Positions 5,766 through 30,380 of a DNA stretch of 32,000 nucleotides are shown here, piece by piece. The notes under the pieces are model-generated. The model saw only the letters and a list, made by a program, of their open reading frames with translations. It made no database searches and was not told the origin of the DNA. Within the stretch, counting starts at the first letter, position 1, and each line of letters starts with the position of its first letter. This DNA comes from Clostridium disporicum (lineage in GTDB: Bacteria; Bacillota; Clostridia; Clostridiales; Clostridiaceae). A program made the position numbers and the translations under genes. The stretch covers positions 58,133-90,132 of the forward strand of contig NZ_CYZX01000008.1 of NCBI RefSeq assembly GCF_001405015.1, read 5' to 3'.

Positions 5766-5868
5766 CTTATATAAGGTGCTAGGGGTGCCAATTGGCTGAG
5801 AGATGATTTTATCATTAACCCTTCTTTACCTGATCTGGGTAATACCAGCGTAGGGAAGCTATATACGG
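5766..5868 (+). promoter_or_regulatory. TPP (THI-box) riboswitch
   Basis: Conserved cores ctAGGGGTGCc...GCTGAGA...ACCCTTcttTACCTGATCTGGgTAATACCAGCGTAGGGAAgc. Confidence 0.92.
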
Positions 5869-5893
5869 ATTTTTATTATTTTCGTTTAACTGG

Positions 5894-10883: not shown

Positions 10884-11438
10884 CTATTTACCCTCTTCTA
10901 ATTTTTTATCTATTTTATTTATAGCATTTATAAATTCTTCTTTAGTAATTCCGTAATTATTTAATCTAGATAACATTTGATTTGCATTACCATATCCTAT
11001 TCCTAGCTCTTTTCCTAGTTCAATTCTTCTTGCCTTAGAATTACTATCTCCAGTAAGCTTGAAATAAATCATATCCTCATAATCAAATACTTTTTCTTTT
11101 ACTTCTAATGTTACCTTAGCTCTATTTAATGCTTCTATTATAACTTCAGGAGTTGCATTTTCTACACCTATATCATCGCCCTTAATTCCGTCTTCTTGAG
11201 CAATATAAGCATGCTTTATCCCTGGCACTCTTTTAGCTATTATTTTTCTTATTTTTTCTCCAGCGAAATCTGGATCAGTAAGAACTATTACACCTTTTCT
11301 CTTTTGGGCTTCTTTAATTCTTGCTATTACCTTTGCATTAATTCCAAATCCACCAACTGCTATCATTTCTGCATCTACTGCTTGCTTTACTGCAGTAATA
11401 TCGTCTCTTCCCTCTACTACTATAACTTCTTTAATCAA
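10884..11438 (-). CDS. rnmV: ribonuclease M5 (Toprim domain)
   Basis: VVEGRDD ... VLTDPDFAGEKIR Toprim signature. TTG start 7 nt after AAGGAAG. Conserved rnmV-ksgA pairing. Confidence 0.9.
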   Translation of the reverse strand: MIKEVIVVEGRDDITAVKQAVDAEMIAVGGFGINAKVIARIKEAQKRKGVIVLTDPDFAGEKIRKIIAKRVPGIKHAYIAQEDGIKGDDIGVENATPEVIIEALNRAKVTLEVKEKVFDYEDMIYFKLTGDSNSKARRIELGKELGIGYGNANQMLSRLNNYGITKEEFINAINKIDKKLEEGK

Positions 11439-11577
11439 AGTACTATCTTCCTTTCATAGTATATCTTATATTACTGTATCCCTATATCTCTATTATGTCA
11501 AACTTTATAATAGCAAATCCACTCTTATAAAAAATTAGAATTTACATTTTTTATAATATATATTTTTATTTGTACAC

Positions 11578-11611
11578 ATATAAAAAGAGGCTAGTCCAAA
11601 CTAACCTCTTT
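11578..11611 (-). terminator. probable terminator of the yabE-like gene
   Basis: Minus strand: aaagagg-14 nt-cctcttt, followed by ttatat. Confidence 0.5.
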
Positions 11612-11614
11612 CCT

Positions 11615-12661
11615 TTACCATTCTCCTGGATAAGCTAATATATATACAGGCACACCATATTTTCTACCCCAACTGGTAGCGTGATCGTGACTATTTACAT
11701 ATATATCAATTATACTTCCTTGAATAGCTCCTCCTGTATCTGCGGCAACAGCTTTTCCATAGCCATCAACATATACTAATGATCCTAGCGGAATTACTCT
11801 TGGATCGACAGCTATAGTACTTATACCATTAGGGTTGTACACTGGAACAGTTCCAGTAGCGGTGATTCCATCACCTGTATAAGCTGTAGACTCACAATAC
11901 AGAAGTTCTTTATAATCAAGAACCTCTCCACTTCTACTTGCGAAGGTCCTTCTTGTCCCTTGAACAATTATTTTATTTACTGGTTCGGCTACTACCTTAG
12001 AACCTACTACTTCTCTAGAAACCTCTTTGCCATCTTTTTTCAGTATTCTATAAGTAATTTCTTTTTGCCCAGGAACTCCTTCTTGTCTAATTTCTTCAAC
12101 ACTTATGTCTAAACTTCCATCTTCTTCTGTAACTGTATCAAATTGAATTGTCTCAGTTGCGACTTCTTTTACCTCTTCAACCTTAACTAATTTAATTTGT
12201 AAATTCTTTTGTATTTTTGTATCAAGATTAGGCTCAACCTCATCTATATTCTTTATAAATTCAATTCCTTGTGACTTAAGCGCTTCGTATTCAGCATCTA
12301 ACATATCTTCTACAGTTTTTTCAGCTGTTAAAATTGATAATTCCTTATCCATTGTTATTAACTGAACCTCTACAGCTTTCGTAATTGTTATCTTTTCACC
12401 TTCTGATAATCTGTCATCTAAAGCTGGCTGCACTTTGTCCTTTTCAGTAAGTTCTATTCCTTGATCTAATACTAGATCTTTAACAGTCCCTTTAAATGTT
12501 GTAACTTTTACTTCATTTCCATCTACAACTAACGTTACAGTTTTTCTCAGACTCGCTACAGATAATGCTATAACTACCGTCACAATAGCACATAACAAAA
12601 TCTTTGCCTTAGGACTATTAGAAAAATTTCTTTTAAGGTATTCCTTACATTTTTCTATCAT
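11615..12661 (-). CDS. YabE-like cell-wall protein (TM anchor, DUF348 repeats, G5 domain, C-terminal 3D domain)
   Basis: N-terminal TM segment, repeated V..DG..v..t domains, a G5-like IRQEGVPGQKEITY segment, and a C-terminal 3D/RlpA-like region (STAYTGDG...IAVDPRVIPLGS...YVDGYG...ADTGGAI). Same position as B. subtilis yabE. Confidence 0.85.
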   Translation of the reverse strand: MIEKCKEYLKRNFSNSPKAKILLCAIVTVVIALSVASLRKTVTLVVDGNEVKVTTFKGTVKDLVLDQGIELTEKDKVQPALDDRLSEGEKITITKAVEVQLITMDKELSILTAEKTVEDMLDAEYEALKSQGIEFIKNIDEVEPNLDTKIQKNLQIKLVKVEEVKEVATETIQFDTVTEEDGSLDISVEEIRQEGVPGQKEITYRILKKDGKEVSREVVGSKVVAEPVNKIIVQGTRRTFASRSGEVLDYKELLYCESTAYTGDGITATGTVPVYNPNGISTIAVDPRVIPLGSLVYVDGYGKAVAADTGGAIQGSIIDIYVNSHDHATSWGRKYGVPVYILAYPGEW

Positions 12662-12891
12662 CTACCTAAACCTCCTTTGGCAAGAGTGTATTTGAATTAT
12701 ATTATAATTCAATACTTTTTGTCAAATTTACCACTCTTACTATATTTAACTACTAAAAATATACCACTGTACATAAAAAATAAAATAAATAAAATGATAG
12801 CTGTTTTTATAGTTATTAAAATGTTAAGTTTTTGATGATATTATGTTAATTGTGATGGAAATAAAAGGAAAATCTGTAGTATTATTTTACT

Positions 12892-13677
12892 TTACTTTTC
12901 TCTTGAAATCAACCTCTCAAAATTCTCATTTAATTTGATATTTGCATTAATCGGGTCAATTTTCTTTATTTCAGCTATTTGTTCTATTATATATTCAATA
13001 TAATCCGATTTATTCCTTTTTCCTCTATTAGGTACTGGTGCCATATAAGGGCAATCAGTTTCAACTAATAATCTATCAATAGGAATTTCATCCACTACTT
13101 CTACTATTTTTTTAGCATTTTTAAATGTAACTACTCCTGTTACTCCTATATAGTAACCTAATTTTACACATTCTTTAGCAAATTCTACACTACCTGAAAA
13201 ACAATGAACTATCCCCTTAACCTCTGGATATTCCTTCATTATATCTAGTGTATCTTTATGTGCATCCCTATCATGAATAACAACTGGAAGTTTTAACTCT
13301 CTAGCTAATTCCATCTGTTCTCTAAAGACTCTTTTTTGAGTTTCTCTATCTGGATTCTCTTCCCAATAATAATCTAATCCTATTTCTCCAATAGCTAATA
13401 TCTTTTTATTAGAATTAGCCTTTTCTATAATCTCAGCTCTAACGTCTTCATTATAATCATAAGCATCACTTGGATGTATCCCTAATGCCCCATATATAAA
13501 ATCATACTTTAATGTTAATTCATTAGTTGTAGTTAAGCTTTTTCTAGAGCAAGCACAATTTAATACTCCTATAACTCCAGCTTCTTGAATCTGTTTTAAT
13601 ACCTCTTCTCTATCTTCATCAAAAGCCTCATCATCATAGTGAGCATGTGTATCAAAAATCTTATATTTAGGTTCCAT
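12892..13677 (-). CDS. tatD: TatD family metal-dependent hydrolase/DNase (YabD)
   Basis: FDTHAHY..., EIGLDY, VIHDRDAH, VHCFSG, ETDCPY motifs. Confidence 0.92.
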   Translation of the reverse strand: MEPKYKIFDTHAHYDDEAFDEDREEVLKQIQEAGVIGVLNCACSRKSLTTTNELTLKYDFIYGALGIHPSDAYDYNEDVRAEIIEKANSNKKILAIGEIGLDYYWEENPDRETQKRVFREQMELARELKLPVVIHDRDAHKDTLDIMKEYPEVKGIVHCFSGSVEFAKECVKLGYYIGVTGVVTFKNAKKIVEVVDEIPIDRLLVETDCPYMAPVPNRGKRNKSDYIEYIIEQIAEIKKIDPINANIKLNENFERLISREK

Positions 13678-13716
13678 AATATATCTCCTTATTTTTCAAT
13701 TTAAATCATTATTCTT

Positions 13717-13744
13717 ATTATACCAAAGCTCAAAATTTTGATAA
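13717..13744 (-). promoter_or_regulatory. candidate promoter of tatD (extended -10)
   Basis: Minus strand: TTATCA-16 nt-TATAAT, preceded by TGg. Confidence 0.45.
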
Positions 13745-13780
13745 GTATATAAACATTAAATTTCAATCTTCTATATTCTT

Positions 13781-14063
13781 ATGTGGAACAAGAATAGGAA
13801 CAAGCTCCATTTTTTCCTATACGCGTGTATATGCGTGTACGCGCACCTATAATTACTTATTATTTATTATTCGTTCTTAATATATAATTCTTGTTCCCTT
13901 GTTCCAAACATTAATCAATCCTAGTATTTTAACCACTTCCCATATGGAACAACAAAAGGAACAAGACCGATTCTTGTTCCTCTTGTTCCACATATTATTC
14001 TATTTTTAAAAAGAATTGCTCTACTTTTAAAACTTGTTCCAAGCTCGTTCCACTTCTTGTTCC
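13781..14063. repeat. dense array of 11 copies of GGAACAAG/CTTGTTCC in both orientations
   Basis: GGAACAAG at 13785, 13797, 13946 (GGAACAAC) and 13958. CTTGTTCC at 13890, 13898, 13973, 13982, 14033, 14044 (CTCGTTCC) and 14056. The ends ATGTGGAACAAG (13781) and CTTGTTCCACAT (to 13993) are inverted repeats. Confidence 0.9.
13818..13846. other. perfect 29-nt alternating pyrimidine-purine tract (Z-DNA-prone), GC-rich
   Basis: tatacgcgtgtatatgcgtgtacgcgcac alternates Y-R at every position. It lies inside the first GGAACAAG/CTTGTTCC inverted pair. Confidence 0.9.
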
Positions 14064-14091
14064 AATTTCCTTTATGATGTAACACCTCTCA

Positions 14092-14868
14092 TTAATTGAA
14101 TCTTACATAAAATGAACCTTTATAATCATTTAGATAAACTTCTACCTTTTGTCCTGGTTCTACAAACATTCCTTCAGTAAATTCTTCAGCTGAAATTTTA
14201 TCTGTTTCTGATTTTAAATTTCCATCTTTATCGTATACCTTCACCACTATATCGCCTTTTTCTCTTTCTCCCTTACACCAAAAGCTATGCTGATTAGATG
14301 TAATTGTATATTCTAAAACGTCTGTTGTTCTTTCATTAAATACCCTACCTTGATATCCGCTTGTATCAAAAGTGTTAATCTCTTCGGTGTAGCTTCCAGT
14401 AATTCCAGAGAAACTAACGTAGCTTACTACGAACATACCCACAAATAAAATTGCTAATACTACTATTATAGAAACTACTATTATAATAGGTTTATTATTT
14501 ATTTTTCTTTTACTATTAGTTATTTCATCAGGTAGTTCTGTTGTACAATTAGGACAGAATCTCCACCCCGGTTGAACATTTTGTCCACAGTTAGGACAAA
14601 AGTTTCCACACCTTTCCCCACAGTATGGGCATAACTTTAAGTCTTTTGGTACTTCTTTTCCACAGTTATTGCATCTTCTTCTATCGCTTCTACTAACTAT
14701 TGCATAAACTATAATTCCAACTGGAAATGCTATAAATGCAGCTATAGTCCATAGCCACCAATACTCTTCTCCTCTTTTTCTTGAATCAAGAGCAACCCAA
14801 ATAGCTTGCCATATAAATAATCCAAAAATTATAGCCATAAAAATCATTGGCATAAACATAATTAACAT
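14092..14868 (-). CDS. membrane protein with PLD-N-like TM hairpin, double zinc ribbon and extracytoplasmic C-terminal domain
   Basis: CNNCG...CPYCG...CPNCG...CPNC zinc ribbons between TM segments. SD AAGGGGGA upstream. Last gene of the ECF sigma operon. Confidence 0.75.
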   Translation of the reverse strand: MLIMFMPMIFMAIIFGLFIWQAIWVALDSRKRGEEYWWLWTIAAFIAFPVGIIVYAIVSRSDRRRCNNCGKEVPKDLKLCPYCGERCGNFCPNCGQNVQPGWRFCPNCTTELPDEITNSKRKINNKPIIIVVSIIVVLAILFVGMFVVSYVSFSGITGSYTEEINTFDTSGYQGRVFNERTTDVLEYTITSNQHSFWCKGEREKGDIVVKVYDKDGNLKSETDKISAEEFTEGMFVEPGQKVEVYLNDYKGSFYVRFN

Positions 14869-15777: not shown

Positions 15778-15803
15778 AGACGTAATATCTTCAAAATAGT
15801 TCA
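15778..15803 (-). promoter_or_regulatory. ECF-type (autoregulatory) promoter candidate
   Basis: Minus strand: TGAAC-16 nt-CGTCT, about 35 nt upstream of the sigma-factor start. Matches the generic ECF GAAC/CGTC architecture. Confidence 0.55.
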
Positions 15804-16006: not shown

Positions 16007-16048
16007 AACTAGAGCCGACGTCCCCCAACTTAGGCTCTAGTTTTTTTT
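16007..16048. terminator. strong hairpin terminator overlapping the stop of the MetRS-like gene; U tract much better on the plus strand
   Basis: aactagagcc-16 nt-ggctctagtt (10 bp), followed by T8 on the plus strand. On the minus strand it is followed only by accattcttta. Confidence 0.7.
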
Positions 16049-17498
16049 AATTTCTTTTCTCTTTTAATCTTAAAACTTCATCAATAGCTCTTCTTTTATC
16101 AATTCTCTTTAGTTCTAAATCAACCTCTTTTAATATTCCATCTCTTTTTTCTATAAAACTCCATATAGGTTCATTAATACTTAAGGAAGTTCTTATATTT
16201 TCACAAATATTAGGCATAAATGGTTCCAATAAATTAGCTATATTAGCTACTATTTGAATATTATTATAGACCTTATTCTTGCAGTAATCAGGATTCTTCT
16301 CTGCCATGTCCCATAATAAATTTTCTTTAAAATCTTTATTAGCCTTTCTGCAAAAAGCCATTATATTATTTAACGCACTATTAAAATGCCCCTCTTCAAT
16401 ATCGTCTCCAACGCTAAAATATAAATCTAAAATTTCATTTTTTAAACTTTCCTCTATAATTCCACTTGGTATTCTCGGCCCATAATTTTTTCTTGAGAAA
16501 GTTATGACCCTTTGTACATAGTGCGAAAAAGTACTTACCAAATCAAAATTATTTACATTTATATAATCCCTCCATGAAAAATCAGTATCCTTATCTTCTG
16601 GAGAGTTTAGCATAAGATAATATCTAAAACTATCTACGTTATAATTCTTTGTAATATAATCAGCCCATAATGCCCAATTCTTAACTGATGAGAATGGTTT
16701 TCCTTCTAGTTTTAAATGCTCACTTGATATCATTCTTAAATTAGGATTTTTAATTCCTACTCCACATAAAATAGCTGGGAAAATAACAGTATGGAAAGGT
16801 ATATTATCTTTTCCGTGAACAAAATAAACCCTTGAATCATCTCCGCTCCAATATTCTTTCCAATCCTCTCCTCTTTCACTTAGACATTTCATACTGGCAG
16901 TAAGATATCCCATTACCGCTTCAATCCATACATATATTTTTTTATCTTCATATCCGTCTAACGGTACATCAACGCCCCAATTAAAATCTCTTGTTACAGC
17001 TCTATCCCTTAATCCTTCATCAAGATATCTTTTTAATATTTTTTTGGCATTTTCTCTCCATCCATCTTCATTATCAAATATGTACTTTACATCATCCTCA
17101 AACTTAGATAAAGCAAAGAATAAATGTTTTGACCCATCTACTATTTCTTCATATATATATCCTTTTTCATATAAATCTAAAATAAATTTTTTTACCTTTT
17201 CTTGGTGATATTCAGAATGAGTTTTTTCAAAAATATCAAAAGAAAATCCTAAAGATTTAAAACATTTTTGAAATTCCTTATGATATTTTTCTACAGCTTC
17301 TAACGGAGATATCCCCTCTTCTTCTGCTCTATTAGTAACAGGAGTACCATGACAGTCAGTTCCTGATATAAATACAACATTATCTCCCATCATTCTATGA
17401 TACCTAGCTAAAATGTCCCCAGGTAACCATACAGCAATTCTTCCTAAATGAAGTGGTCCATTAGCATAAGGCCATGCATTTCCTATAATTATATTCAT
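16047..17498 (-). CDS. MetRS-like class I aminoacyl-tRNA synthetase paralog (truncated, degenerate catalytic motifs)
   Basis: WPYANGPLHLGR..., GTDCHGTP, WGVDVP, VWIEAVMGY, HGKDNIPFHTVIFPA and LLW in the anticodon-domain position all align to E. coli-type MetRS. It lacks the Cys-knuckle insertion and the C-terminal tRNA-binding domain. SD AAGGGGG lies 7 nt upstream of the ATG. Confidence 0.85.
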   Translation of the reverse strand: MNIIIGNAWPYANGPLHLGRIAVWLPGDILARYHRMMGDNVVFISGTDCHGTPVTNRAEEEGISPLEAVEKYHKEFQKCFKSLGFSFDIFEKTHSEYHQEKVKKFILDLYEKGYIYEEIVDGSKHLFFALSKFEDDVKYIFDNEDGWRENAKKILKRYLDEGLRDRAVTRDFNWGVDVPLDGYEDKKIYVWIEAVMGYLTASMKCLSERGEDWKEYWSGDDSRVYFVHGKDNIPFHTVIFPAILCGVGIKNPNLRMISSEHLKLEGKPFSSVKNWALWADYITKNYNVDSFRYYLMLNSPEDKDTDFSWRDYINVNNFDLVSTFSHYVQRVITFSRKNYGPRIPSGIIEESLKNEILDLYFSVGDDIEEGHFNSALNNIMAFCRKANKDFKENLLWDMAEKNPDYCKNKVYNNIQIVANIANLLEPFMPNICENIRTSLSINEPIWSFIEKRDGILKEVDLELKRIDKRRAIDEVLRLKEKRN

Positions 17499-19923: not shown

Positions 19924-20195
19924 ATAAAAAAATCCTCTATATAGGTTAATTACCCATATAGAGGCGTTATATACGCGTTACCACTCTATTTTTACATTTA
20001 TCTCACAATAAATATCTCACTAGGTTACTATCATCACCGTGCAATATAACGGTTGCTACCGTATTATCCTAATCATAAGACTCAGATAATCTGCTCCAAG
20101 ACCATCTTCATAAAGTTCAATGACGCTAGCTTTCACCAAATCCTAGCTCTCTTTAGACATATTCCTAAACTACTCTTCTTTTCTATGCATTTATT
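19924..20195 (-). promoter_or_regulatory. T-box leader, methionine specifier (AUG)
   Basis: Minus strand has AGAGAG...GGTGAAAG stem I elements, specifier loop gaactttATGaag (ATG at 20109-20111), T-box sequence AGAGTGGTAACGCG (19974-19987), and terminator cctctatatggg/cctatatagagg followed by T7. Confidence 0.9.
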
Positions 20196-22096: not shown

Positions 22097-22335
22097 ATAA
22101 AAAGAGCCTTGAGTTAACACTCAAGGCCCTAAAATTGCATTAAAAAATTAGGTCTTCCTCAAATGATAGCTCACCACAAAAACAAGTTTGTGACAGTGAT
22201 ATATATATTATATACATCCCCAGCTATACAACCTTAAAGCATTAGTTGTATGCTTCGGCGATAATTCCTTTCCTATTAACTCACAGTGCTTACCTCATCA
22301 ATAGTACTCTTAAGTATCGCGCCTCTACCTTTATT
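22097..22335 (-). promoter_or_regulatory. lysine riboswitch (L-box) with terminator
   Basis: Minus strand has gtAGAGGCGCgatacttaAGAGTA...GGAAAGGaattaTCGCCGAAGc...tAAGGttgtatagCTGGGG...ACTGTCAc, then terminator gccttgagt/actcaaggc followed by a T run. Confidence 0.9.
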
Positions 22336-30118: not shown

Positions 30119-30380
30119 AAAAAAACTCCATCCAAAAGGACGAAGTGTTATTCGCTATACCACCTATGGTTATTAAGCTCACATTATATATAAAACGAGC
30201 CATATCTTCAGATACTATCATATCCTATCCTTTAACGCAGGATTACGGGATAGCTTAATTGTCAAACTTTCAGCCTCCAACTCATAGGTGATTTTCTTAA
30301 AGCATTTCTATGATTTCACACCAACCAATCACTCTCTTAAAGAAAAAACTTAAATACTTTTCCTAATCATAGTTTTTAAC
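30119..30380 (-). promoter_or_regulatory. T-box leader, isoleucine specifier (AUC)
   Basis: Minus strand has AAGAGAGTG...GGTGTGAAA, specifier loop aagaaaATCacc (ATC at 30290-30292), T-box GGTGGTATAGCG (30153-30164), and a terminator hairpin followed by a T run. Confidence 0.9.

What the first reader, a model, noticed from the sequence alone, without database searches (positions are those of the whole stretch)
13781..14063. Eleven-copy GGAACAAG/CTTGTTCC array forming nested foldback structures between tatD and the ECF operon
Within 283 bp of non-coding DNA the 8-mer occurs 11 times (9 exact, 2 with one mismatch). Plus orientation: 13785, 13797, 13946, 13958. Minus orientation: 13890, 13898, 13973, 13982, 14033, 14044, 14056. 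Copies come in pairs 8-12 bp apart, and the pairs are arranged as inverted repeats. Pair 13785/13797 faces 13890/13898. Pair 13946/13958 faces 13973/13982 and forms a roughly 19-bp interrupted hairpin with a 7-nt loop. The outermost sequences ATGTGGAACAAG and CTTGTTCCACAT give a roughly 210-bp unit with TGT...ACA ends, which looks like a MITE or foldback element. Three further copies lie outside that unit, which fits a multi-site protein-binding array better. The extended motif TGTTCCAC equals one half of the Firmicute parS palindrome TGTTCCACGTGAAACA, but no full parS is present. I recognise no known operator, riboswitch or IS end here.
Basis: seen in the sequence. Interest (0 to 1): 0.78.

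Follow-up and report, generated by a model that had tools for sequence, protein, structure and literature searches.

The report
Orphan phage replication-origin iteron array
The 11-copy GGAACAAG cluster is a roughly 300-bp piece of phage DNA, the repeat-studded region that follows the primase-helicase gene in a large family of Clostridia phages and is probably their replication origin; it sits in the Clostridium disporicum chromosome without its initiator gene and looks like a slowly decaying relic, not a new host device.

Summary
All 9 exact GGAACAAG copies in the 32-kb window lie in 13785-14063 (0.74 expected), and two one-mismatch copies lie there too.

The array is not a MITE, a parS half-site or an ECF promoter. 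It has the same modular architecture as an intergenic element found in many Clostridia phages and prophages with GC from 33 to 64%: iterons, an alternating pyrimidine-purine tract, an AT-rich stretch, inverted iterons, then an iteron hairpin and distal iterons.

In 27 phage loci, 165 of 180 exact iterons lie in the gap between a VapE-type primase-helicase gene and a VRR-NUC gene. That helicase resembles SaPI1 Rep (PDB 7PDS), whose origin is defined as iterons just downstream of rep, flanking an AT-rich centre in opposite orientation. I therefore read the phage element as an iteron-type replication origin. This is an inference.

The window copy is an orphan, because no VapE gene is nearby. It is a 341-bp lineage-specific segment (13747-14087), absent from the sister lineage and from all 80 related tatD loci. 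It is polymorphic within the species: some assemblies carry a 166-bp iteron-to-iteron deletion and some strains carry an iteron point mutation. Iterons are not significantly protected (P=0.135).

The most likely status is a captured phage-origin relic. A decoy role remains possible.

The parts
13747..14087 (.). Lineage-specific segment (341 bp) that holds the whole array. It has no counterpart in the sister lineage.
   Evidence: The flanks 14088-14193 and 13601-13746 align at 87% with sister-lineage locus L223. The interior does not align, and L223 has 548 bp with a small lipoprotein-like ORF in its place. The length matches the phage VapE/VRR-NUC spacers, whose median is 319-331 bp.
13785..13804 (+). 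Unit A, proximal iteron pair: GGAACAAG at 13785-13792 and 13797-13804, 12-bp spacing, preceded by TGT.
   Evidence: The same position and orientation are seen in about 20 phage arrays. Position 13804 is mutated in 3 strains.
13818..13846 (.). Perfect 29-nt alternating pyrimidine-purine tract, tatacgcgtgtatatgcgtgtacgcgcac. It contains near-palindromic ATACGCGTGTAT.
   Evidence: Read from the sequence. A homologous CCTATA(TA)CGCG(Y)GTATAT tract sits at the same place in L031, L094, L056, L150, L151, L303, L037 and L018.
13847..13889 (.). AT-rich centre of unit A, a candidate DNA-unwinding region.
   Evidence: GC is 0.20-0.28 here. An AT-rich block occupies this position in the phage arrays.
13890..13905 (-). 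Unit A, distal iteron pair: abutting CTTGTTCC CTTGTTCC that faces the proximal pair.
   Evidence: The sequence CTTGTTCCCTTGTTCCAAA plus its flank is also found in L018 and L118.
13946..13989 (.). Unit B, iteron hairpin: GGAACAAC and GGAACAAG (+) facing two CTTGTTCC (-).
   Evidence: The unit-B pattern found 30 viral contigs.
14033..14063 (-). Distal iterons: CTTGTTCC, CTCGTTCC and CTTGTTCC at 11-12 bp spacing. They correspond to the iterons next to the VapE stop codon in phages.
   Evidence: In L306 and L312, the iterons at 14056-14063 and 13890-13897 are the end points of a 166-bp deletion.
13717..13744 (-). tatD promoter, TTATCA-16-TGgTATAAT. It is shown as context only, lies downstream of the array and is not part of it.
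   Evidence: It is the best promoter-like match, 10 of 12 with an extended -10. The TTTGGTATAATAA sequence is conserved in relatives that lack the array.

Best explanation
The array is a captured copy of a phage cis-element. In a large family of Clostridia phages and prophages, the replication module runs DUF2800 nuclease, Enc34-type SSB, family-A DNA polymerase, VapE-type primase-helicase, VRR-NUC and SNF2 helicase. The roughly 320-bp spacer right after the primase-helicase gene carries TGGAACAAG iterons in this same layout.

By analogy with SaPI Rep/ori and P4 alpha/ori-crr, the iterons are most likely bound by the C-terminal winged-helix-like domain of the primase-helicase. That protein would then melt the AT-rich centre and load itself, which makes the element the phage replication origin.

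In the Clostridium disporicum chromosome the element has no initiator gene next to it. It replaced about 550 bp (as in the sister lineage) between the ECF-operon Zn-ribbon gene and the tatD promoter, in this lineage only. It most likely has no host function. It would be silent unless a phage of this family supplies its initiator, and it is already eroding by recombination between its own repeats.

Shown here: the homology of architecture, the phage context, the orphan and lineage-specific status, and the polymorphism. Inferred: which protein binds, origin activity, and neutrality.
For: (1) Architecture. The order of iterons, Y-R tract, AT-rich block, inverted iterons, spacer of about 35 bp, iteron hairpin and distal iterons is shared by the window and about 20 arrays from contigs of 33-64% GC. 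Similarity extends outside the iterons, at 72-79% over 71-139 nt to L037, L018, L200 and L150.

(2) Phage context. In 27 loci that carry both genes, 165 of 180 exact iterons lie in the VapE-to-VRR-NUC gap, which is 4.5% of the sequence. Neighbouring genes were identified with Pfam.

(3) The initiator. VapE of L118 matches PDB 7PDS, SaPI1 Rep1 with DNA, at E=4.5e-70. An AlphaFold model of a homologue matches 7PDS by Foldseek at E=1e-21 over 465 columns of a 451-residue chain. Its N-terminus matches a PrimPol AEP domain (6ZP9, E=6e-5). The last 60 or so residues are predicted as helix-helix-strands and carry a conserved motif, EIWCECFG...GWEK...YGKQRVY.R. The motif is kept even in L207, whose protein has a different N-terminal primase domain (Pfam Prim-Pol and PriCT_2) and whose best alignment is only 32% identical.

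(4) Published definition. A SaPI ori has 6-12 iterons immediately downstream of rep, an AT-rich centre, and at least 2 iterons on each side pointing in opposite directions, bound by the Rep C-terminal winged helix (PMC9371898). P4 alpha has the same primase, SF3 helicase and winged-helix organisation (PMC2777425).

(5) Orphan status. The window has no VapE or VRR-NUC gene, and window proteins do not hit the phage loci.

(6) Lineage-specific status. The array is absent upstream of tatD in all 80 related loci, including the sister lineage at 90% TatD identity with the same gene order. It is present in 21 full-length copies from C. disporicum-type strains.

(7) Decay. A 166-bp iteron-to-iteron deletion occurs in L306 and L312. 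An iteron point mutation occurs in 3 strains. Of 15 variable sites, 1 falls in iterons, which is not significant depletion (P=0.135).
Against: Nobody has shown origin activity or protein binding for this element, so the origin reading rests on position, layout and homology of the neighbouring helicase.

The array is not always next to VapE. In L215 it lies about 10 kb away. In L211 it lies between terminase and early genes. In L199, L203 and L221 a short cluster follows a sigma-region-4-like DUF1492 gene. Another module protein could therefore be the binder.

The conserved alternating Y-R tract has no counterpart in SaPI origins and is unexplained.

For the relic reading, the orphan is unusually intact. 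It has 9 exact and 2 near-exact iterons, against a phage median of 7 and only 2 in a C. beijerinckii prophage. It was also captured almost exactly as the intergenic unit, with no phage coding sequence. Both facts could hint at selection or at a specific capture mechanism. The strains are only about 1% diverged, so the test for constraint has little power.

I could not scan the rest of the C. disporicum genome for further copies or for a cognate prophage.
Confidence: 0.65

Rival explanations
1. The array is a domesticated decoy or conditional origin. The chromosomal copy would be kept because it titrates the initiator of infecting VapE-type phages, or fires when that initiator is present. This would be a natural counterpart of the engineered 'phage-encoded resistance' (PER), in which a cloned phage origin protects the cell.
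For: [quoted passage not shown] The orphan is complete and has more consensus iterons than most phage copies. It is present in most sampled strains of the lineage. VapE phages are abundant in Clostridium.
Against: PER is copy-number dependent, and this is a single chromosomal copy. Iterons are not significantly protected from substitution (P=0.135). A deletion that removes units B and C, together with an iteron mutation, is found in at least two assemblies. No defence genes lie nearby. The array is absent from the sister lineage.
Confidence: 0.12
2. In the phages the repeats are not an origin. They are operator or activator sites for a phage transcription factor, for example the sigma-region-4-like DUF1492 late regulator, that controls the operon starting at VRR-NUC. 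The window copy would then be an orphan promoter-control region.
For: In most phages the array ends 10-20 bp before the VRR-NUC ribosome-binding site, so that operon's promoter must lie inside it. In L199, L203 and L221 a GGAACAAG cluster follows a DUF1492/Sigma70_r4_2 gene and precedes terminase. DUF1492 homologues are detectable in 11 array loci. GGAAC resembles an ECF-type -35 element, a point that rests on general knowledge.
Against: No DUF1492 homologue is detectable in L056, L118 or L151, which have full arrays and long flanks, whereas VapE is present wherever the flank is long enough. The spacing from iterons to the CGCG tract varies from 15 to about 40 nt, so there is no fixed -35/-10 geometry. 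Inverted iteron sets flanking an AT-rich core are the hallmark of an origin. The two functions are not mutually exclusive.
Confidence: 0.15
3. The array is a MITE or foldback transposable element with TGT...ACA ends, inserted with a TA or 5-bp target duplication.
For: There is a 14-nt perfect terminal inverted repeat at 13780-13793 and 13981-13994, with TA on both sides. The 5-bp flanks tctta and tatta match at 4 of 5 positions. The segment is an insertion relative to the sister lineage.
Against: The lineage-specific segment is 13747-14087, not 13782-13992. No genome among 185,579 species representatives carries multiple copies of the terminal motif. There is no other copy in the window or in about 700 kb of related loci. 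In phages the element sits at one syntenic position. The 'ends' are simply iterons. The flanks are AT-rich, so a 4-of-5 match is weak evidence.
Confidence: 0.03
4. The array is a host regulatory element: binding sites for a host factor or the neighbouring ECF sigma factor, or a terminator/insulator between the ECF operon and tatD.
For: The array replaces the intrinsic terminator that relatives carry between these genes. The unit-B hairpin is very stable. The array lies upstream of the tatD promoter.
Against: The ECF-type promoter GAAC-N16-CGTC occurs once, upstream of the sigma gene, and no GGAAC in the array has CGT at 14-19 nt. The terminator scan found nothing in the spacer. Relatives with the same operon lack the array. 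The motif's conservation tracks phages rather than this host.
Confidence: 0.05

Closest known systems
SaPI (staphylococcal pathogenicity island) ori with the Rep/PriRep self-loading helicase
   Same: Both have short iterons, here 11 against 6-12 in SaPIs. In the phage relatives the iterons lie immediately downstream of the initiator-helicase gene. Both have an AT-rich centre with at least 2 iterons on each side in opposite orientation. The neighbouring phage protein is homologous to SaPI1 Rep1 (7PDS, E=4.5e-70 by sequence and 1e-21 by fold) and is fused to a primase, as in SaPI5 PriRep5.
   Different: The iteron is a 9-mer, TGGAACAAG, rather than a penta- or hexanucleotide. There is a second iteron hairpin and a conserved alternating pyrimidine-purine tract. 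The hosts are Clostridia phages carrying their own family-A polymerase, not satellites. The window copy lacks any rep gene. Binding and origin activity are untested.
Bacteriophage P4 ori/crr and the alpha protein
   Same: One polypeptide combines primase, SF3 helicase and a C-terminal winged-helix origin-binding domain (PMC2777425). From my own knowledge, not verified here, its sites are an octamer (TGTTCACC) repeated in direct and inverted orientation, in two separate clusters.
   Different: P4 alpha has a DnaG-type primase, whereas these proteins have an AEP/PrimPol-type N-terminus. The iteron sequence differs. P4's ori and crr are kilobases apart.
Non-coding origin-like element of S. thermophilus phage Sfi21 and 'phage-encoded resistance' (PER)
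   Same: It is a non-coding, origin-like stretch of about 300 bp in the phage replication module. When present in the cell in trans it acts as a decoy for phage replication (PMC6356513, citing Foley 1998). This is the closest precedent for what an orphan copy could do.
   Different: PER was shown with multicopy plasmids or within prophages. This copy is single, chromosomal and outside any prophage, and nothing here shows that it protects the cell.
MITEs and foldback elements
   Same: Terminal inverted repeats, small size, no coding capacity, and insertion relative to a sister lineage.
   Different: The element is not multicopy in any genome scanned. The inverted repeats are iterons. The homologous copies sit at a fixed position in phage genomes.
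Firmicute parS (TGTTNCACGTGAAACA)
   Same: Two iteron copies, together with their flank, spell the half-site TGTTCCAC.
   Different: There is no palindromic 16-mer. The flank bases are not conserved across the family.

Membership tests
Iteron-type origin of a Rep/PriRep (VapE-like, SF3) self-loading helicase (SaPI-type ori) | 6-12 short repeated iterons | tested here: met
   The window has 9 exact and 2 one-mismatch copies. Phage relatives have 2-10 exact copies, median 7.
Iteron-type origin of a Rep/PriRep (VapE-like, SF3) self-loading helicase (SaPI-type ori) | AT-rich centre with at least two iterons on each side pointing in opposite directions | tested here: met
   Iterons at 13785 and 13797 (+), an AT-rich stretch at 13847-13889, and iterons at 13890 and 13898 (-). 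The definition comes from PMC9371898.
Iteron-type origin of a Rep/PriRep (VapE-like, SF3) self-loading helicase (SaPI-type ori) | Located immediately downstream of the initiator-helicase gene | tested here: not met
   This is met in the phage relatives, where 165 of 180 iterons lie in the VapE/VRR-NUC gap. It is not met in the window, where the upstream gene is a Zn-ribbon membrane protein and no VapE gene lies in the 32 kb. I therefore file the window copy as an orphan derivative, not a working replicon.
Iteron-type origin of a Rep/PriRep (VapE-like, SF3) self-loading helicase (SaPI-type ori) | Cognate initiator has an SF3 helicase core and a C-terminal winged-helix domain that reads the iterons | tested here: inconclusive
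   Homology of the helicase core to SaPI1 Rep1 is clear. The C-terminal 60 or so residues are conserved and predicted as helix-helix-strands at pLDDT about 70-89. No separate fold match of that domain was obtained, and no binding was tested.
Iteron-type origin of a Rep/PriRep (VapE-like, SF3) self-loading helicase (SaPI-type ori) | Supports initiator-dependent replication or melting | not testable with these tools
   This needs EMSA, footprinting, plasmid replication assays or marker-frequency analysis.
MITE / foldback transposable element | Many dispersed copies in a genome | tested here: not met
   The scan of 185,579 species genomes gave 67 stretches. Nearly all were single matches with no array, and only two (L150, L151) had the array architecture, both next to VapE genes. 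There is no second copy in the window or in 80 related loci. Caveat: the complete C. disporicum genome itself could not be scanned.
MITE / foldback transposable element | Terminal inverted repeats flanked by a target-site duplication | tested here: inconclusive
   A 14-nt perfect inverted repeat exists. However, the insertion boundaries defined against the sister lineage, 13747 and 14087, do not coincide with it. The TA and 4-of-5 flanks are weak evidence in AT-rich DNA.
parS / ParB centromere | 16-bp palindrome TGTTNCACGTGAAACA | tested here: not met
   No match within the array with up to 3 mismatches.
ECF sigma-factor promoter | -35 GGAAC/GAAC and -10 CGT(C) separated by about 16-17 nt | tested here: not met
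   The only GAAC-N15-18-CGTC in the window is at 15779-15802, upstream of the sigma gene. No GGAAC in the array has CGT at 14-19 nt.
PER-type origin decoy (phage-encoded resistance) | A phage origin present in trans lowers replication of the cognate phage | not testable with these tools
   Only the precedent is documented. Population data show no significant constraint on the iterons.

The most novel reading that the evidence does not exclude
A complete phage replication origin kept in single copy in the bacterial chromosome would be a natural 'origin decoy'. When a TGGAACAAG-type phage infects, or a resident prophage is induced, its primase-helicase would load at the chromosomal site. That would either sequester the initiator or start local over-replication that harms the phage or aborts the infection. 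It would be a protein-free, cis-acting anti-phage element, the natural equivalent of engineered PER.
Probability: 0.1. Interest if true: 0.7.

Novelty: new member of a known kind. Interest (0 to 1): 0.4.

Why it matters
Three points matter.

- **An unrecognised marker.** The TGGAACAAG array appears to be an undescribed, strikingly conserved cis-element. The same 9-mer occurs in phage contigs from 33 to 64% GC whose primase-helicases are only 46-57% identical to the reference VapE proteins I compared them with. The element marks the probable origin of a very common replication module in gut and environmental Clostridia phages, with more than 8000 VapE homologues detected. It can therefore be used to annotate these phages and to build replicons or shuttle vectors for Clostridia, which are hard to manipulate genetically.
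- **A lesson for annotation.** A dense repeat array in a housekeeping intergenic region need not be a host operator or a transposon. It can be a stranded piece of phage replication machinery.
- **A ready-made experiment.** The natural series in C. disporicum comprises a full array, a 166-bp deletion and an array-free sister lineage. It offers a direct way to ask whether a single chromosomal copy of a phage origin has any effect on phage infection.

Tried and rejected
- **ECF sigma promoter or -35 array.** Rejected. The operon's own promoter is GAAC-N16-CGTC at 15779-15802, and no array copy has a matching -10. The window sigma is unrelated to the sigma found in some VapE prophages (E=0.31). 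Sister lineages have the sigma operon without the array.
- **MITE, IS630-like or Tn7-like end.** Rejected on copy number, boundaries and synteny.
- **parS half-site.** Rejected.
- **Known RNA.** There is no Rfam hit in the spacer at the gathering threshold. The only sub-threshold matches were to a plastid psbA 3'UTR hairpin.
- **The 54-aa ORF at 13921-14085.** It has no Pfam hit and no tblastn match in the fetched loci, so I treat it as spurious.
- **Plasmid and cultured-phage databases.** blastn found no match to the array.
- **A loose pattern search.** TGGAACAAGN{0,4}GGAACAAG in viral contigs was swamped by 9-bp-periodic collagen-like coding repeats. The inverted-repeat pattern solved this.
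- **Purifying selection on iterons.** With 10 strains, 0 of 13 variable sites fell in iterons (P about 0.04). With 21 copies the figure is 1 of 15 (P=0.135), and deletion variants appeared, so I withdrew the claim.
- **Donor phage.** The best matches are only 72-79% identical over 71-139 nt, so the donor has not been sampled.
- **Intrinsic terminator in the spacer.** The scan found none.
- **Literature.** I found no paper describing the GGAACAAG array. A search aimed at P4 ori/crr returned no paper describing its iterons, so the P4 octamer detail rests on memory.
Full report
**Observation.** GGAACAAG or its complement occurs 9 times exactly in the 32-kb window. All 9 copies are between 13785 and 14063, against 0.74 expected, and none of 100 shuffles reached 9. 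One-mismatch copies lie at 13946 (GGAACAAC) and 14044 (GGAACGAG). The copies form pairs of the form TGGAACAAG-N(0,1,4)-GGAACAAG, and the pairs face each other. A 14-nt perfect inverted repeat joins 13780-13793 to 13981-13994, and a 23-nt, 87% repeat joins 13784-13806 to 14042-14064. Single strands would fold strongly: the unit at 13946-13989 reaches -28.6 kcal/mol (z=-5.9), and the whole array as ssDNA has z=-7.3. Between the first two pairs lies a perfect 29-nt alternating pyrimidine-purine tract (13818-13846), followed by an AT-rich stretch.

**Setting.** All genes here are on the minus strand. In order they are metG, a second 483-aa MetRS paralogue, an ECF sigma factor, a 106-aa protein with no Pfam match, a 258-aa Zn-ribbon membrane protein, the 414-bp spacer holding the array, tatD, a G5/3D-domain protein, rnmV and ksgA. 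The organism is Clostridium disporicum, because the TatD and sigma sequences are identical to WP_055265111.1 and WP_055265117.1. The tatD promoter, TTATCA-16-TGgTATAAT at 13744-13717, lies between the array and tatD and is conserved in relatives.

**Where else the motif clusters.** A loose search of viral contigs was dominated by 9-bp-periodic coding repeats. A few contigs of 47-61% GC nevertheless showed 8-10 copies in both orientations within 300 bp. A scan of one genome per species (185,579 species) for TGTGGAACAAG-N1-4-GGAACAAG returned 67 stretches. Nearly all were single matches with no array. Two loci had the array architecture: a Clostridium sp. MAG (L150) and an uncultured Clostridia MAG (L151). 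A pattern specific to the inverted arrangement, with 24 specified bases, found 30 viral contigs. By my rough estimate fewer than one match is expected by chance.

All these arrays, and the window, share one modular plan. It runs: 2-3 direct iterons, an alternating Y-R tract of the type CCTATA(TA)CGCG(Y)GTATAT, an AT-rich block, 2 inverted iterons, a spacer of about 35 bp, then more iterons facing several inverted ones. The repeat logo is T-GGAACAAG with unconstrained flanks, and the commonest variant is GGAACAAC, as at 13946. Similarity to the window extends beyond the iterons, at 72-79% over 71-139 nt. Examples are CTTGTTCCCTTGTTCCAAA plus its flank in L018, and TACGCGTGTA 15 nt after the last iteron in L150 and L303.

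**Phage context.** Pfam annotation shows a conserved replication module: DUF2800 PD-(D/E)XK nuclease, Enc34-type ssDNA-binding protein, family-A DNA polymerase, a VapE-like protein of about 780-810 aa, the array, VRR-NUC, SNF2 helicase, and then regulators and terminase. A named example is a prophage of C. beijerinckii (MBAF01000043.1). In 27 loci with both genes, 165 of 180 exact iterons fall in the VapE/VRR-NUC gap, which has a median of 331 bp and makes up 4.5% of the sequence. The VapE proteins are only 46-57% identical to the reference VapE proteins used as queries, and the contigs range from 33 to 64% GC, yet the 9-mer is the same. More than 8000 homologues exist, and the named ones are mostly from Clostridium species.

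**What the phage element most likely is.** VapE of L118 matches the chain of PDB 7PDS, SaPI1 Rep1 bound to DNA, at E=4.5e-70. An AlphaFold model of a close homologue (mean pLDDT 76) matches 7PDS at E=1e-21 over essentially the whole 451-residue chain. Its N-terminus matches a PrimPol AEP domain. These proteins are therefore PriRep-type primase-helicases.

The SaPI literature defines the cognate origin precisely. It has 6-12 short iterons immediately downstream of rep, an AT-rich centre, and at least two iterons on each side pointing in opposite directions. The iterons are read by the C-terminal winged helix of Rep, which loads itself without a loader (PMC9371898). Phage P4 alpha has the same primase, SF3 helicase and winged-helix organisation (PMC2777425).

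The phage arrays meet every positional and architectural criterion. The last 60 or so residues of the VapE proteins are conserved (EIWCECFG...GWEK...YGKQRVY.R) and predicted as helix-helix-strands. They are retained even in L207, whose protein carries a different primase domain (Pfam Prim-Pol and PriCT_2) and whose best alignment is 32% identical. I therefore infer that the array is the origin of this phage family and that the primase-helicase C-terminus is the iteron reader. Neither point is demonstrated.

Two things count against this. The array is not always adjacent to VapE (L215, L211, L199/L203/L221). A sigma-region-4-like DUF1492 protein is also frequent in these modules. However, DUF1492 is undetectable in L056, L118 and L151, which have full arrays.

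**The window copy is an orphan and a recent acquisition.** The window has no VapE, VRR-NUC or other phage gene, and its proteins do not match the phage loci. Eighty related tatD loci were recovered from metagenomes, and none has a single iteron in the spacer upstream of tatD. The sister lineage has 90% TatD identity and the same order of metG, metG2, sigma, anti-sigma, Zn-ribbon gene and tatD. In place of the array it has a small lipoprotein-like ORF or its remnant. More distant relatives have just a terminator and the conserved promoter. Alignment with the sister lineage delimits the window-specific segment to 13747-14087. Its 341 bp is close to the size of a phage VapE/VRR-NUC spacer. The captured piece is thus essentially the phage intergenic unit alone, with 9 exact and 2 near-exact iterons, at the top of the phage range.

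**Population data.** Twenty-one full-length copies (13 haplotypes) were recovered from gut metagenomes and two NCBI assemblies of C. disporicum-type strains. With the first ten strains, no variable site fell in an iteron (P about 0.04). With all 21 copies, 1 of 15 variable sites does, at position 13804 in three strains, and the depletion is not significant (P=0.135). Two assemblies (L306 = GCA_040915905.1, and L312) carry a 166-bp deletion. It fuses the iteron at 14056-14063 to the one at 13890-13897, removing unit B and the distal iterons. The array is therefore eroding through its own repeats in part of the population. That fits a neutral relic better than a selected device, although the strains are too close for a powerful test.

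**Alternatives examined.**
- ECF promoter: the only GAAC-N16-CGTC is the sigma gene's own promoter, at 15779-15802, and no array copy has a -10 partner.
- MITE: copy number, boundaries and phage synteny all speak against it.
- parS: there is no 16-mer, and the flanks are not conserved.
- RNA element: nothing in Rfam.
- Terminator: none was detected, although the array did replace the terminator that relatives have, so read-through from the ECF operon into tatD is possible.
- Plasmids and cultured phages: no nucleotide match.

**Verdict.** It is a new member of a known kind: an iteron array of the Rep/PriRep-origin type, here as an orphan copy captured from a Clostridia phage. The family itself seems undescribed and is remarkable for keeping one 9-mer across very divergent phages. 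The most novel reading still open is that the orphan acts as a natural origin decoy, as in PER. I give that about 10%.

Noticed in passing
window 13818-13846: A perfect 29-nt alternating pyrimidine-purine tract with Z-DNA or cruciform potential, in a 30% GC genome. A homologous CCTATA(TA)CGCG(Y)GTATAT tract sits at the same place in the phage arrays and has no counterpart in SaPI origins. Its role is unexplained; a second binding site, a primase start or a melting aid are possibilities.
   Followed up: partly
L306 (GCA_040915905.1, JBCPCO010000172.1) and L312; equivalent to window 13898-14063: Natural 166-bp deletion between two direct iterons, leaving a 248-bp spacer with only unit A. Three other strains carry a point mutation in the iteron at 13797-13804.
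   Followed up: yes
window 16047-17498 (-): A second methionyl-tRNA synthetase paralogue (483 aa, lacking the C-terminal tRNA-binding domain) lies directly downstream of the full-length metG. It is conserved in many relatives. Only metG1 is preceded by a T-box (19957-20194).
   Followed up: partly
window 15779-15802 (-): A textbook ECF-type promoter, GAAC-N16-CGTC, upstream of the ECF sigma gene. It is the only such match in 32 kb and is probably the autoregulated promoter of the sigma/anti-sigma/Zn-ribbon operon.
   Followed up: partly
window 5771-5873 (+), 22159-22335 (-), 30133-30379 (-): Rfam hits at gathering score: a TPP riboswitch before a ThiT-like transporter gene, a lysine riboswitch before a Na+/H+ antiporter-family gene, and a second T-box before the 1036-aa ORF.
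   Followed up: no
L150 3300-4000 (Clostridium sp. MAG_CA253): The array's unit A is duplicated in tandem (period about 318 bp) together with a roughly 21-aa ORF (MASIHPALACHSSRWMNSNMQ and a variant). A group II intron reverse transcriptase lies next to it, and the VapE gene is split into two ORFs. It is probably a rearranged prophage.
   Followed up: partly
L150 6662-7228 and L304 3406-3966: Low-GC Clostridium prophages of this family carry an ECF-like sigma gene between the DNA polymerase and VapE genes. It is unrelated to the window's ECF sigma (E=0.31), so having a sigma gene near the array in both settings is a coincidence.
   Followed up: yes
L215 650-1000 versus 11093-13751: In this phage contig VapE and VRR-NUC are only 17 bp apart, and the full iteron array lies about 10 kb away among small ORFs. 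In L211 the array lies between a lambda-type terminase and the DUF2800 module. In L199, L203 and L221 a short cluster follows a DUF1492 sigma-region-4-like gene. The element can therefore move within the phage genome.
   Followed up: partly
viral loci L019, L026, L046, L060, L087 and others: GGAACAAGN repeated with 9-bp period on one strand, which I read as Gly-Thr-Arg/Ser collagen-like coding repeats. These are common in viral contigs and produce many false hits for tandem GGAACAAG patterns.
   Followed up: no
L223 5379-5926 and L313 1218-1500: In the sister lineage the same spot holds a small lipoprotein-like ORF (MKRKISIIILLMITLTLFTSC...) or a truncated remnant of it. More distant relatives have only a terminator. 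This intergenic site has been remodelled repeatedly.
   Followed up: partly
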